The notes beneath the pieces are model-generated. The model searched no databases. It saw only the letters and a list, made by a program, of their open reading frames with translations, and was not told the origin of the DNA. Position numbers and translations under genes: made by a program. DNA of 13,646 bases from a virus (Duplodnaviria > Heunggongvirae > Uroviricota > Caudoviricetes). How positions within the stretch are numbered: the stretch's first letter is position 1; every line of letters starts with the position of its first letter. Positions 3,671-10,964 of the stretch are shown piece after piece. The stretch covers positions 1 through 13,646 of IMG/VR virus record IMGVR_UViG_2724679293_000014; one strand, 5' to 3'.

Positions 3671-4072
3671 TAAAAAACAAACCACGCAAAAACAATAAAA
3701 CAACACACAAAAAAAACTAAATAACAAACAAAAATAATCACCTTGTTTTATTATTTTTTGAGGGAGCAATTACTGAACAAAAAACGCTGACTATATACTC
3801 AAAACCAAACAACTATTCTGCCAATCAGGTATCATGGCAACACACGGAATTACCGTGTTTTTGCCTTCTCTGCCCATACAATACGGGCATATACTTCATT
3901 CTCTATTGTAATATTTCTATCCATGTGCCCCACTCCATTTACCTGTAAATAATATTCAAAATATTTATCACAGAAATCGTTTTTGGCCATGAACTGAGCA
4001 CACTATAAAGTCCGGAACTGACTCTTTGTTAAATTACCTTAACGTTACCAGTAACACCTTCATAACAAAATA

Positions 4073-6096: not shown

Positions 6097-6303
6097 CTAC
6101 TCTCCCCGCGCCACCTTACGACGGTCCTCTCTGATTTTGAAATACAGGTTAGTCAGATACGTCAGCAGGCCAAACAGCAGACTTCCCAGCACACCTATTG
6201 CCACCCACTGGGACGGAGAGACTTTGTCCAGCAGCTGCAGTAACCAGTATCCCGTCCCCACCGCTGACGTGGTGTATGACACACCTGTTGTGATTTTTTC
6301 CAT
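6097..6303 (-). CDS. S: Pinholin (phage 21 S21-type class II holin), 68 aa
   Basis: [68 protein letters not shown] is near-identical in pattern to S21 ([68 protein letters not shown]) as recalled. Confidence 0.9.
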
Positions 6304-6558
6304 CTGATGTATGTCTCCGTCACCGCCGACAGAAAATGAAAGTAAAGAAAAACAAAAAAACCGCCAGTGTCACCCACTGACGGCCAACTCCGGGAGCCGT
6401 GATTATGGCATTCAGGCTCTGCTAAAAATGCCAGATAACATTCCGGCCTCCCCTGATTCAGGTTATAAATGACACAATATCTTGACAACACCCGTCACTG
6501 TCTGTCAGAAAATATACCGCCAGGCATAAGTATCATGTGAAATCCAACTATCCTTCTG

Positions 6559-6601
6559 AGCCAGCACCTCTCCACCGAAAGTCAGTGCTGGCTGTTTTTT
6601 T
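6559..6601 (+). terminator. Plus-strand rho-independent terminator (module 1)
   Basis: agccagcac-(loop)-gtgctggct followed by gttttttt; no A-tract upstream, so it is oriented for the plus strand only. Confidence 0.5.
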
Positions 6602-6708
6602 CCTTAATAAAGCATCTGTAACTGAAACAATCCGCATATTGATAATATATTGACAGGCATCATTGCTGTCTGTGAAAAATAAGTCTCTACAAACATATAA
6701 GGCCTTTT

Positions 6709-6749
6709 AGCCAGCGTCTTCTTTCAGGTCAGTCGCTGGCTCTTTTTTT
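6709..6749 (+). terminator. Plus-strand rho-independent terminator (module 2), abutting the nanS-p stop codon
   Basis: agccagcg-(loop)-cgctggct followed by cttttttt; paralogous to the hairpin at 6559-6601. Confidence 0.5.
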
Positions 6750-6750
6750 A

Positions 6751-8601
6751 TTATGCTGCCGGTGCATTTATCTCCAGCACCAGACTTTCTATCTCAACGC
6801 CATACGCTGCATTTTTTGTAACATCCGTCAGCGTCAGCGCATTCAGTCCCAGTGTCAGACTGTCTTTTATAACCTGGAATGCCGGGCCAGCCACTCCATT
6901 CAGTTTCGGAGTAACCGTGGCACTGCCGGCGGTGAACACCAGCTCCAGCGTCTGCCAGTCGTTACCGTAATCGCCGAACTCCCCCAGCTTCGTGTTTCCG
7001 GCTTTCCTGTGATGCATCAGATTCACTCTGCCGTCAGTGGTCTGAGTGAAGTACGACATCAGGAACGGATTACCGGTACCCGTCATCGCCACACCATCAG
7101 GAACGGGAGCATCCGTATACAGATAAATCCCCAGCCCGAACTGATTGTTGGTCAGTGCGCCTGACAGGCGGAACTTACAGGTCAGTCTGCCGCCCTGTGT
7201 CAGCAGGGTAATTGCGTCATCCACCGGATGCGTCAGGGACCAGGTTTTATTGCTCTGCTTGGCGATCTTAAATACACCACCCGACAACTGAATTCCGCCA
7301 TCCTTAATGCTCCAGCCCTGCGCAGCAGCCTCTCCGGCTGCCGGCAGCAGGGAGATTGTGCGAACGGACGTATCTGCAGACGGACCCGATGGCGTGTTGC
7401 CGCCGGGCGAGGGTTTGATTTCCGGTGCCTTACCACTGATGAAGGCTGAGGTGCGCCCGGCTGCGTTCAGAATAGCGGTTGCCAGACGATCCGGAATAAT
7501 GCTCCTGCGCGCCCATGAACTGAAATGTGTCGGGCGGTTTGATGATACCTGGTTTCCATTCGTTCTCGATGCCGCACCGTAATATCCTGATGCCGGAATA
7601 TCCGGATCTTCTGCCGGCGCGTTAGTGGCGGTATTGACACCGTTACCGTCTGTCATGAAGGACACAAAATAAACGCCCTCACTCTCCCTGTTTTTATACC
7701 CGCCGTACACGGTGTCGTACTGGGTAGCGTATGTATTTTTCCAGTAATACGTCGTGTCACCACAAATCCACGGCACATCTGCAGCACTGCCACCATGGCA
7801 CTGCGCGTTAAACACGGAGAGGTCAGCACGAAACTGTGTCAGCATGGCTGTAAACAGCGCAGGTTGCTGTGCGTGGGTGGCGGCGCTCATGTCAAACTCT
7901 CCCTGCATCCAGCACACCGCCAGCAACACATTTTTCGGGTTCTTCTGTAATGCAGCTTTAGTGCGCGCAATCAGGTCCTGATATAACGGTTTACCCACAC
8001 CCCAGCGTGCCGAATCCTGGCTGGCCCCCGTGTCCGCACTGAATGTCCCCTCCGCGCCCTGGGTGAATGCCGAACCACCACGACAGCATGGTACCAGCAG
8101 GATCCCCGCGTTATTCGGGATATACGGAAGCAGTTTTTTGGCAATATGTAAGCCCTGGCCGACACAGCCGTACTGCCCTTTGCTCAGGTCTGCCTTCGGA
8201 TGATTCAGCGTACTCATATCCTGCACATCATGCAGGCAGTGGTCGGCCGGAATAATATCGTTATATCTGCAGGCAGCCCCACCCGGCGTCACTGTACTGC
8301 GGCGCGCCAGCTGTTTAATGCGCGGATCCGGAGCATCGTATGAATCCGGCAGCGGAAGCCCTTCACCGTAAGCCATGGCATTGGACTGCCCGGCCAGTAC
8401 GATGACGTAGTACCAATCCGGCTCAGTTGCACCACTGACCACCACATCACCTTCTGCTGTAATCGCCTGCATCAGGGTATAAGGGGTTATGGCCACCGGA
8501 CTACCAAACGGCTGCCAGCCCTCTTTCAGTTTGTGTGTCAGCTTTTCCGCAAGGTCTGACGGCGACGCCGCCCTGACAACATCATAATGTTTAAATGTCA
8601 T
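6751..8601 (-). CDS. nanS-p: Prophage-encoded sialate O-acetylesterase (NanS-p-like; N-terminal DUF1737 plus SASA esterase domain), 616 aa
   Basis: Track ORF with strong SD (GGGAGGAATA-ATG); N-terminus MTFKHYDVVRAASPSDLAEKLTHKLKEGWQPFGSPV and esterase motif VIVLAGQSNAMAYGEG are typical of NanS-p proteins found between Q/stx and the lysis genes of EHEC lambdoid prophages. Confidence 0.85.
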   Translation of the reverse strand: MTFKHYDVVRAASPSDLAEKLTHKLKEGWQPFGSPVAITPYTLMQAITAEGDVVVSGATEPDWYYVIVLAGQSNAMAYGEGLPLPDSYDAPDPRIKQLARRSTVTPGGAACRYNDIIPADHCLHDVQDMSTLNHPKADLSKGQYGCVGQGLHIAKKLLPYIPNNAGILLVPCCRGGSAFTQGAEGTFSADTGASQDSARWGVGKPLYQDLIARTKAALQKNPKNVLLAVCWMQGEFDMSAATHAQQPALFTAMLTQFRADLSVFNAQCHGGSAADVPWICGDTTYYWKNTYATQYDTVYGGYKNRESEGVYFVSFMTDGNGVNTATNAPAEDPDIPASGYYGAASRTNGNQVSSNRPTHFSSWARRSIIPDRLATAILNAAGRTSAFISGKAPEIKPSPGGNTPSGPSADTSVRTISLLPAAGEAAAQGWSIKDGGIQLSGGVFKIAKQSNKTWSLTHPVDDAITLLTQGGRLTCKFRLSGALTNNQFGLGIYLYTDAPVPDGVAMTGTGNPFLMSYFTQTTDGRVNLMHHRKAGNTKLGEFGDYGNDWQTLELVFTAGSATVTPKLNGVAGPAFQVIKDSLTLGLNALTLTDVTKNAAYGVEIESLVLEINAPAA

Positions 8602-8689: not shown

Positions 8690-8784
8690 AAGAAATGAAG
8701 AAGGCCACGCAGTTGCGCAGCCTGATAAACCCTGGTTAAAATCCACACGATAACAACACAACAATATCAGTATCTCATGCTATT

Positions 8785-8846
8785 GCCCGAACCCATTCGG
8801 GCATTTTTTACCCATAAAAAATGCCCCTCCGGAGAGGGGCATTTTT
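8785..8846. terminator. Terminator cluster: plus-strand hairpin with T-run (8785-8809) and a bidirectional terminator (8816-8846)
   Basis: gcccgaacccattcgggc+atttttt; aaaaaatgcccctc-cgga-gaggggcattttt with A/T tracts on both flanks. On the minus strand the second would stop late transcription ahead of nanS-p unless antiterminated. Confidence 0.6.
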
Positions 8847-9043
8847 GCATGCACATTCTTTTTCTTGCATGGTGCCGGGTGCCTCCCGGTGAATTCAGTA
8901 TCAGCACCTGAATCCGCGATTATCACATATACCTACTTGCTGATTGCCCCTCCGCACAGGGGGATTCACCATGCAGTAGTATTTTTAATAAACAGCAAAT
9001 AAAAAAATCAAGCATTATGCAGGCTGTTTCTTTTTATCACCGG

Positions 9044-10593: not shown

Positions 10594-10964
10594 TTTTTGA
10601 CCTGCCCTTCAAGCATTATGGGGTAAATCTTCACCCCCAGACGTCCACCAGATACTGGCTGACCACGAACGATATTGATTTCATCAAACTGCTCATCGTC
10701 CATTAACACTCCCGCATGCGTCAGCGCATCCAGCGGTGCTTTCAGGATATTGTCCAGGTCGCGACGACGCTTATCCGGTGGCTCTGCAATCACCTTTATC
10801 GCCAGCCTTCCGGACAGGATTAATTTCAGCCGCTGCTGGCGAACAATAAGCGCCACAGCCCGGCGATAACGCTTTCCCTCCTCCGAGATAAAATATGTGC
10901 TGCCACGACGTCGCCAGTAGGTGTTCACCGTTGGCGGGTAAGGTAAAACCAAATCTATGAGCAT
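10590..10964 (-). CDS. rusA: Holliday junction resolvase RusA (crossover junction endodeoxyribonuclease), 124 aa
   Basis: MLIDLVLPYPPTVNTYWRRRG...DLDNILKAPLDALTHAGVLMDDEQFDEINIVRG is the characteristic RusA pattern; good SD (AGAGGTGA); typical position just upstream of Q. Confidence 0.9.
   Translation of the reverse strand: MLIDLVLPYPPTVNTYWRRRGSTYFISEEGKRYRRAVALIVRQQRLKLILSGRLAIKVIAEPPDKRRRDLDNILKAPLDALTHAGVLMDDEQFDEINIVRGQPVSGGRLGVKIYPIMLEGQVKK

What the first reader, a model, noticed from the sequence alone, without database searches (positions are those of the whole stretch)
6476..6750. Tandem duplicated promoter-like plus terminator modules between nanS-p and the holin gene
Seen in sequence: two paralogous units about 170 bp apart share the layout ata-TTGACA, 10 nt, CTGTCTGT, A-rich segment, then a hairpin with arms AGCCAGC / GCTGGCT followed by a 7-T run (6482-6601 and 6650-6749). 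Both terminators are oriented for the plus strand, antisense to the late operon, and the second abuts the nanS-p stop. Inference: they could mark two short plus-strand RNAs, a duplicated insulator blocking antisense transcription into nanS-p, or structured elements in the late mRNA between nanS-p and S.
Basis: seen in the sequence. Interest (0 to 1): 0.5.

Follow-up and report, generated by a model that had tools for sequence, protein, structure and literature searches.

The report
Known prophage small-RNA genes, tandem pair
The two repeated promoter-plus-terminator modules are real, but they are already-catalogued prophage small regulatory RNA loci: pasA, plus a diverged tandem copy previously seen only as Hfq-bound clusters EcOnc51/EcOnc52.

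Summary
Two collinear plus-strand modules lie between the holin gene S and the nanS-p esterase gene. Each has TTGACA, 10 nt, CTGTCTGT, an A-rich stretch, an AGCCAGC/GCTGGCT hairpin and T7. The resemblance is far above chance.

Module 1 is the pasA gene. The published EPEC PasA ends map to 6517-6601 (85 nt), and its northern probe matches 6568-6592 exactly. A minor 236-nt isoform reads through to the module-2 terminator at about 6752.

Module 2 corresponds to the Hfq-crosslinking clusters EcOnc51 and EcOnc52 of EHEC Sakai. Sakai prophage Sp4 keeps module 2 alone, and EPEC RIL-seq chimeras end in its terminator.

The insulator idea is at most a side effect. The late-mRNA structure idea is disfavoured.

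The kind is already known. Two small points seem unrecorded. Module 2 is a diverged tandem paralogue of pasA, although a 2026 preprint says pasA copies are never tandem. PasC-type loci look like one-module hybrids. Whether module 2 fires from its own promoter is not shown.

The parts
6482..6487 (+). -35-like hexamer TTGACA of pasA (module 1)
   Evidence: Read. Its first base lies 35 nt upstream of the published PasA 5' end, which maps to 6517.
6498..6513 (+). Conserved CTGTCTGT block plus A-rich stretch (CTGTCTGTCAGAAAAT). This is the -10 region of pasA; the exact hexamer is uncertain.
   Evidence: Shared with module 2 at the same 10-nt distance from TTGACA. Candidates are TGt-CAGAAA with an 18-nt spacer or GAAAAT with a 20-nt spacer. 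The scanner did not call either.
6517..6601 (+). PasA-family sRNA, major 85-nt form
   Evidence: EPEC E2348/69 PasA runs 743499 to 743415 on the minus strand (Table S6, PMC8550237). Aligned to the window. 74/85 identical; the last 45 nt are 45/45 identical.
6560..6569 (+). Published PasA seed GCCAGCACCU, lying in the 5' arm of the terminator stem
   Evidence: Fig. S5 text of PMC8550237. The sequence is identical in the window.
6559..6601 (+). Intrinsic terminator 1: stem 6559-6567 / 6585-6593, then T7 at 6595-6601
   Evidence: (I12). Annotated as a terminator in phage 434 record OL657226. The northern probe target is 6568-6592.
6650..6655 (+). -35-like hexamer TTGACA of module 2
6666..6680 (+). 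CTGTCTGT block plus GAAAAAT of module 2 (putative -10 region)
6685..6749 (+). Predicted module-2 RNA of about 65 nt. It corresponds to Hfq-CRAC clusters EcOnc51 (Sp12) and EcOnc52 (Sp4). The 5' end is inferred, with a range of 6672-6686.
   Evidence: Table S2 of PMC4104026. Sp4 keeps only this module. Genome-version offset derived. Fold.
6709..6749 (+). Intrinsic terminator 2: stem 6709-6716 / 6734-6741, then T7 at 6743-6749
   Evidence: (I9). Annotated as a terminator in phage 434. RIL-seq chimeras at E2348/69 743267-743294 fall here.
6517..6752 (+). PasA minor read-through isoform (236 nt in EPEC)
   Evidence: Table S6 gives a minor end at 743264, which maps to about 6752. 222 of 238 alignment columns are identical.
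6751..8601 (-). nanS-p-type sialate O-acetylesterase gene, convergent with the sRNAs
   Evidence: ORF. Pfam hits SASA, DUF1737 and DUF6645.
6774..6781 (-). GGUGCUGG in the nanS-p mRNA 3' end, complementary to the core of the PasA seed
   Evidence: The 8-mer CCAGCACC is repeated at 6561-6568 and 6774-6781 (D12). The same site in both EPEC esterase mRNAs is listed among PasA RIL-seq target motifs (Table S7). An 8-mer repeat alone is at chance level.
6097..6303 (-). Class II (P21-type) holin gene S, downstream in the late operon
   Evidence: ORF. Pfam Phage_holin_2_1, E 1.3e-32.
6355..6385 (-). Minus-strand intrinsic terminator just upstream of S (stem 6359-6385, then a U-run down to about 6355)
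   Evidence: Fold -18 kcal/mol, z -4.55. Annotated as a terminator in phage 434.

Best explanation
The interval holds two tandem, paralogous small-RNA modules. Both are transcribed on the plus strand, convergent with nanS-p and antisense to the phage late operon.

Module 1 is pasA.
- Shown: an RNA starts at about 6517, 35 nt after the first base of a consensus TTGACA.
- Shown: it ends at the intrinsic terminator at 6601, giving an 85-nt Hfq-dependent RNA.
- Shown: a minority of transcripts read through to the second terminator, giving the 236-nt isoform that ends at about 6752.
- From the literature: PasA has an unstructured 5' part, a terminator hairpin and a U7 tail. It binds Hfq and pairs in trans with many mRNAs through GCCAGCACCU (6560-6569).
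- Its physiological role is not established.

Module 2 is a diverged duplicate with the same promoter layout and a related terminator.
- Shown: its RNA is Hfq-bound in EHEC (EcOnc51/52) and in EPEC (RIL-seq).
- Inferred, about 60% likely: it is also transcribed from its own TTGACA promoter as an RNA of about 65-78 nt. The corresponding seed position reads GCCAGCGUCU, so its targets would differ.
- Otherwise it serves only as the backstop terminator and Hfq-binding 3' end of long PasA.

Inferred: single-module loci such as pasC arise from, or gave rise to, the two-module form by unequal recombination between the repeated hairpin regions.
For: Identity of module 1:
- The PasA northern probe matches 6568-6592 exactly, and the published ends map to 6517, 6601 and about 6752.
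- The setting is the same as described for pasA, between a SASA esterase gene and a class II holin gene.
- The window interval 6470-6760 is 100% identical to Sakai Sp12. It is present in 692 of 5426 complete E. coli genomes, with a median of 5 places per genome.

Identity of module 2:
- In Sakai Sp4 an IS629 insertion has replaced everything up to 20 nt upstream of the module-2 TTGACA. EcOnc52 lies in that 121-nt gap.
- The NC_002695.1 to .2 offset of +130 to +149 places EcOnc51 on about 6675-6770.
- No cluster is listed over module 1 in Sp12.
- escD chimeras end in the module-2 terminator.

Structure:
- Across 10 distinct terminators, 94.4% of cells are paired against 23-48% when the partner is slid.
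- 3 of 9 pairs change on both sides, including C-G to U-A in locus L131 and A-U to G-C between the two modules.

Paralogy: alignment z about 10.
Against: - Neither -10 region fits the sigma-70 consensus, and the scanner called no promoter there.
- A 2026 preprint says the 84-nt PasA 5' end comes from cleavage of a longer transcript. This disagrees with Table S6, where both forms share one start.
- No start-site data for module 2 could be read. The supplements of the Sakai dRNA-seq paper are not held.
- EcOnc51 and EcOnc52 have nearly equal read counts, as expected if the same reads map to identical copies. Sp4 is therefore not independent proof of expression.
- CRAC cluster edges are not transcript ends.
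- The covariation set is small, 10 related sequences.
Confidence: 0.85

Rival explanations
1. Module 2 is not a gene. It is a decayed duplicate whose only roles are to stop read-through from pasA before nanS-p and to give the long PasA isoform, or a fragment processed from it, an Hfq-binding 3' end.
For: - In EPEC the only RNA described as ending there is the 236-nt species, which shares the PasA start.
- The -10 region is weak.
- Hfq-CRAC and RIL-seq signals mark binding sites, not start sites.
Against: - Module 2 has a perfect TTGACA at the same spacing to the CTGTCTGT block as in pasA, whose mapped 5' end fits that promoter geometry.
- Sakai lists a cluster on module 2 but none on module 1 of Sp12. 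That is odd if module-2 signal came only from minor read-through.
- The module survives with its promoter block in Sp4 and in plasmid remnants.
Confidence: 0.4
2. The hairpins act in the minus-strand late mRNA, for example as processing or stability elements between nanS-p and S. The plus-strand features would then be incidental.
For: The reverse-complement hairpins are equally stable: -20.8 and -15.6 kcal/mol, z -3.7 and -6.7. The late transcript must cross them.
Against: - Plus-strand RNAs ending at both hairpins have been observed experimentally.
- The T-runs follow the stems only on the plus strand.
- U.G pairs in the PasC-type and plasmid homologues would be C.A mismatches on the minus strand.
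- Many phages with the same holin lack the modules altogether: 49 of 80 loci.
Confidence: 0.07
3. The modules are purely a transcriptional insulator. On this view the two terminators guard nanS-p against antisense transcription and no RNA product has a function.
For: Two tandem terminators face a convergent gene, and the second abuts the stop codon.
Against: - The transcription being stopped starts only 85 nt upstream, at the module's own promoter.
- The product is abundant, destabilised without Hfq, and has dozens of RIL-seq partners.
- The 3' 45 nt are invariant while the 5' 40 nt vary, as expected for an Hfq-binding sRNA scaffold.
Confidence: 0.05
4. The region encodes small proteins rather than RNAs.
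For: Short plus-strand ORFs exist: 6469-6540 (23 aa) and 6537-6653 (38 aa, GTG start).
Against: The first ORF starts upstream of the mapped RNA 5' end. The second runs through the terminator. The 5' 40 nt of PasA vary with no sign of a preserved reading frame.
Confidence: 0.02

Closest known systems
PasA (EPEC E2348/69 prophage PP2; Pearl Mizrahi et al. 2021, PMC8550237; Zhu, Shabalina and Storz 2026 preprint)
   Same: - Same slot between the esterase and holin genes, and same strand logic.
- Same start position, terminator, U7 tail, seed and northern probe target.
- Same 236-nt read-through form ending at the second terminator.
   Different: The first 40 nt differ at 11 of 40 positions. This matches the preprint's description of PasA variants that share a 3' end but diverge at the 5' end. 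Expression of this exact allele was not tested.
EcOnc51 / EcOnc52 (Hfq-CRAC clusters in EHEC Sakai Sp12 and Sp4; Tree et al. 2014, PMC4104026)
   Same: The window interval is 100% identical to the Sp12 locus. The clusters fall on module 2, on the same strand.
   Different: They were never validated by northern blot, named or given ends. The mapping relies on a coordinate offset between genome versions. That mapping is firm for Sp4 and inferred for Sp12.
PasC (EPEC E2348/69 prophage PP5)
   Same: Same promoter block and same 5' end position as PasA. Its terminator stem (AGCCAGCG/CGCUGGCU) and flank match module 2 better (32/42) than module 1 (28/43).
   Different: It is a single module of 78 nt abutting the esterase stop codon, and its loop sequence is distinct.
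AgvB / AsxR anti-sRNAs (Rfam RF02702, RF02703)
   Same: Short Hfq-bound sRNAs encoded antisense to, or convergent with, the late region of lambdoid prophages. They have conserved 3' ends and variable 5' ends. An AgvB copy sits 2 kb away at 8748-8809.
   Different: No sequence or covariance-model similarity: there is no Rfam hit in 6250-6850 even at E of 10 or less. They sit in a different slot, upstream of nanS-p.
PrrF1-PrrF2/PrrH and OmrA/OmrB tandem sRNA pairs (from my own knowledge, not tested here)
   Same: Tandem duplicated sRNA genes. In PrrF, read-through of the first terminator gives a longer RNA ending at the second, as with the long PasA form.
   Different: Unrelated sequences in core-genome loci, and both copies there have proven promoters.

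Membership tests
PasA sRNA | Sequence matching the experimentally defined RNA and its northern probe | tested here: met
   The probe complement is exact at 6568-6592. 74/85 identical overall, and 45/45 over the 3' part.
PasA sRNA | Published seed GCCAGCACCU | tested here: met
   Identical at 6560-6569.
PasA sRNA | Location between the sialate esterase and class II holin genes, convergent with the esterase | tested here: met
PasA sRNA | 3' stem-loop followed by a U-tract (intrinsic terminator and Hfq site) | tested here: met
   Pair conservation and compensatory changes.
PasA sRNA | Expression and Hfq-dependent stability of this allele | not testable with these tools
   Known only for the EPEC allele.
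EcOnc51/52 Hfq-bound RNA (module 2) | Cluster coordinates fall on the module, on the same strand | tested here: met
   The Sp4 intergenic gap contains only module 2. Edges are uncertain by about 12-20 nt.
Independent sRNA gene (module 2) | Its own transcription start | not testable with these tools
   The promoter-like block is conserved, but no 5'-end data could be read.
Sigma-70 promoter | -35 and -10 hexamers with a 16-18 nt spacer | tested here: inconclusive
   The -35 is a perfect TTGACA in both modules. The -10 candidates match at most 3-4 of 6 positions or need a 19-20 nt spacer, and the scanner did not call them. The mapped PasA 5' end fits the -35 position.
Rho-independent terminator | GC-rich hairpin followed directly by a U-run on the transcribed strand | tested here: met
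   The published 3' ends fall at or just past the two T-runs: the major end at the last T of the first, the minor end 3 nt beyond the second.
AgvB/AsxR anti-sRNA family (Rfam) | Match to the covariance model | tested here: not met
   Only chance-level snoRNA and viral hits in 6250-6850.
HnrS sRNA (66 nt, multicopy) | Sequence identity, including the 15 nt complementary to the mazF 3' end | tested here: not met
   HnrS lies 3.2 kb away in Sp12, and no homologue is in the window.

The most novel reading that the evidence does not exclude
Module 2 is a third, independently transcribed member of the PasA/PasC family, with its own promoter and an altered seed (GCCAGCGUCU). On this reading the esterase-holin gap is a recombination hotspot. 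Unequal crossing-over between the shared promoter and terminator blocks would shuffle 5' targeting parts onto common Hfq-binding 3' ends. That would generate PasA, PasC, the L131-type and possibly the EcOnc32-type genes.
Probability: 0.45. Interest if true: 0.35.

Novelty: already known. Interest (0 to 1): 0.2.

Why it matters
These prophage sRNAs are multicopy in EHEC and EPEC and bind Hfq alongside virulence mRNAs, so correct gene models matter for interpreting interactome data.

What this check adds:
- The interval should be annotated as pasA plus a second, related module rather than as anonymous terminators.
- EcOnc51/52 map to the second module, not to PasA itself.
- The statement in the 2026 preprint that pasA copies are never tandem overlooks a diverged neighbour.

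None of this changes how such elements are understood to work.

Tried and rejected
- Rfam: the gathering-threshold search found only AgvB and STnc100 elsewhere in the window. A permissive search of 6250-6850 gave only chance hits.
It returned about 120 chance matches in unrelated phyla, and the one Escherichia hit (L020) showed no similarity.
- Module 2 as HnrS: I suspected this because HnrS is 66 nt and present in up to nine copies. I rejected it because HnrS equals EcOnc10-12, lies elsewhere in Sp12, and is absent from the window.
- First mapping of EcOnc51: I initially placed it on module 1 using current Sakai coordinates. I rejected this once the +130 to +149 offset between genome versions was found.
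- Duplex prediction: unconstrained RNAduplex of the sRNAs against the nanS-p 3' end gave implausibly long duplexes no better than background.
- Start-site data: the Sakai dRNA-seq/Term-seq supplements are not held, and no paper text mentions EcOnc51, 52 or 32.
- Plasmid copies of module 2 are remnants in IS-rich DNA and say little about function.
- Small ORFs were checked and dismissed.

Full report
**Context**

The window is the late region of a lambdoid prophage, read on the minus strand.
- ORF 6751-8601 (minus) has SASA, DUF1737 and DUF6645 domains, so it is a nanS-p-type esterase.
- ORF 6097-6303 (minus) is a P21-type class II holin.
- Rfam finds AgvB at 8748-8809 (plus) and STnc100 at 8810-9000 (minus) just upstream of nanS-p.
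- The interval 6470-6760 is 100% identical to Sakai prophage Sp12. It occurs in 692 of 5426 complete E. coli genomes, with a median of 5 places per genome.
- The rest of the window is only partly collinear with Sp12, so it comes from a related prophage.

Both modules have TTGACA, a 10-nt gap, CTGTCTGT, an A-rich stretch, an AGCCAGC/GCTGGCT hairpin and seven T's, at the stated coordinates.
- The promoter-like pattern occurs twice against 0.00 expected.
- The hairpin pattern occurs 3 times against 0.02 expected.
- The two modules align with z about 10 against dinucleotide shuffles, and still beat all shuffles without the terminators.
- Both hairpins are stable.
- The curators of the phage 434 record had already marked both as plus-strand terminators, together with a minus-strand terminator just before the holin gene.

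**Module 1 is pasA**

Table S6 of Pearl Mizrahi et al. 2021 lists PasA in EPEC E2348/69.
- It lies on the minus strand, from 743499 to 743415 (major form, 85 nt) or to 743264 (minor form, 236 nt).
- The probe is GCCAGCACTGACTTTCGGTGGAGAG.

I fetched that locus and aligned it to the window.
- The start maps to 6517.
- The major end maps to the last T of the first T-run (6601).
- The minor end maps just past the second T-run (about 6752).
- The probe target is exact at 6568-6592.
- The last 45 nt are identical, and the first 40 nt differ at 11 positions.

PasA was shown by northern blot to be Hfq-dependent and has many RIL-seq partners. Its proposed seed GCCAGCACCU is 6560-6569.

The start lies 35 nt after the first base of TTGACA, which is the expected geometry for a -35 element. 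The -10 region is poor, however, and the scanner did not call a promoter.

A 2026 preprint places pasA between the esterase and holin genes and relates it to pasC.

**Module 2 is EcOnc51/EcOnc52**

Tree et al. 2014 list Hfq-CRAC clusters EcOnc51 (Sp12, 2237479-2237555, plus) and EcOnc52 (Sp4, 1181998-1182075, minus).

Sp4 evidence:
- In the current Sakai record, the 121-nt gap after the Sp4 esterase gene holds only module 2.
- An IS629 end sits 20 nt upstream of its TTGACA.
- EcOnc52 must therefore be module 2.

Sp12 evidence:
- The old and new Sakai coordinates differ.
- HnrS (EcOnc10) serves as an anchor 3.2 kb away and gives an offset of +130 to +149.
- That offset puts EcOnc51 on about 6675-6770, again module 2.
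- No cluster is listed over module 1.

EPEC evidence: chimeras with escD end at 743267-743294, inside the module-2 terminator.

Caveats:
- The two clusters have nearly equal read counts, as expected for reads mapping to identical copies.
- Cluster edges are not transcript ends.
- An independent start at about 6672-6686 is therefore inferred, not shown.

**Structure and strand**

I compared ten distinct terminators from PasA-type, module-2-type and PasC-type loci.
- They pair in 94.4% of cells, against 23-48% when the partner is slid.
- Three of nine pairs change on both sides. Examples are C-G to U-A in locus L131 and A-U to G-C between the modules.
- The U.G pairs present would be mismatches on the minus strand.
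- The sample is small and the sequences are related.
- Both RNAs fold as an open 5' part plus a terminator hairpin and U7, the usual design of Hfq-binding sRNAs.

**Variation of the slot**

I examined 80 viral contigs that carry the same holin.

| Content upstream of the holin | Loci |
|---|---|
| Two modules | 9 |
| Single PasC-type module | 10 |
| Single PasA-type module joined to the esterase end (L131) | 1 |
| Different sRNA, EcOnc32-type, matching Tree's EcOnc32 probe | 11 |
| None of these | 49 |

- PasC shares the PasA promoter and start.
- Its terminator matches module 2 better (32/42) than module 1 (28/43).
- This fits unequal recombination between the repeated blocks, but part of the shared tail is simply the esterase 3' end. 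I treat the hybrid origin as a moderate inference.
- The preprint states that pasA copies are never closer than 22 kb and are not tandem duplicates. It therefore did not register module 2 as a diverged copy.

**Verdict**

It belongs to a known class and to already catalogued loci. Insulation of nanS-p is a side effect of the second terminator. A role as late-mRNA structure is disfavoured. What remains open is whether module 2 fires on its own.

Noticed in passing
window 8748-9000: A convergent sRNA pair lies just upstream of nanS-p: AgvB (8748-8809, plus, 96.5 bits) abutting STnc100 (8810-9000, minus, 146 bits). This is the arrangement Tree et al. describe for the moron site of lambdoid prophages.
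   Followed up: partly
window 6355-6385, minus strand: A strong intrinsic terminator (11-bp stem, then a U-run) sits on the late-operon strand immediately before the holin gene. A differently sequenced but equivalent terminator sits at the same place in holin-linked loci that lack the Pas modules. It may keep moron or nanS-p transcription out of the lysis genes in lysogens.
   Followed up: partly
window 6517-6556 versus 6557-6601: Against the EPEC allele, the first 40 nt of PasA differ at 11 positions while the last 45 nt are identical. PasC is a mosaic of both 5' versions. This is the same pattern of a variable 5' part on a fixed 3' part as in AgvB and AsxR.
   Followed up: partly
window 6561-6568 and 6774-6781: The PasA seed core CCAGCACC recurs on the plus strand inside the nanS-p 3' end, so PasA can pair over 8 bp with its neighbour's mRNA. 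The same site in both EPEC esterase genes appears among PasA RIL-seq target motifs. The repeat alone is not above chance.
   Followed up: partly
window 6482-6507 and 6650-6673: In both modules the -35 hexamer and the CTGTCTGT block form an imperfect inverted repeat (TGACA ... TGTCA in module 1, TGACAG ... CTGTCT in module 2). This could be an operator for an unknown regulator, since PasA is condition-dependent in EPEC.
   Followed up: no
L149, L164, L142 and L208 (Sakai Sp3, record 901580-901706, minus strand): In other prophages the same slot holds a different sRNA gene matching Tree's EcOnc32 probe. Its terminator 3' arm and tail (GCGCTGGCTCTTTTTTATTATGCTGC) resemble module 2. It lies next to a truncated esterase remnant and a PasD/STnc100-like element.
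   Followed up: partly
L207 (Sakai Sp4, record 1182009-1182130): An IS629 end lies 20 nt upstream of the module-2 TTGACA and has displaced pasA. It leaves module 2 alone next to the esterase gene.
   Followed up: yes
L126 about 3968-4033 (Sakai Sp12): The HnrS sRNA (CCCAATCAGTACATT ... terminator) lies about 149 nt from the coordinates printed in Tree et al. 2014. This reveals a coordinate shift between NC_002695.1 and NC_002695.2 that affects every EcOnc coordinate in this part of the genome.
   Followed up: yes
window 10801-10840: A third GCCAGC-N28-GCTGGC inverted repeat lies inside a coding region. I did not check whether a T-run follows, and it is probably unrelated.
   Followed up: no
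preprint 10.64898/2026.05.13.724894 versus PMC8550237 Table S6: The preprint says the PasA 5' end arises by cleavage of a longer transcript. The original table gives both the 85-nt and 236-nt species the same start and different 3' ends, so the longer form reads as terminator read-through.
   Followed up: partly
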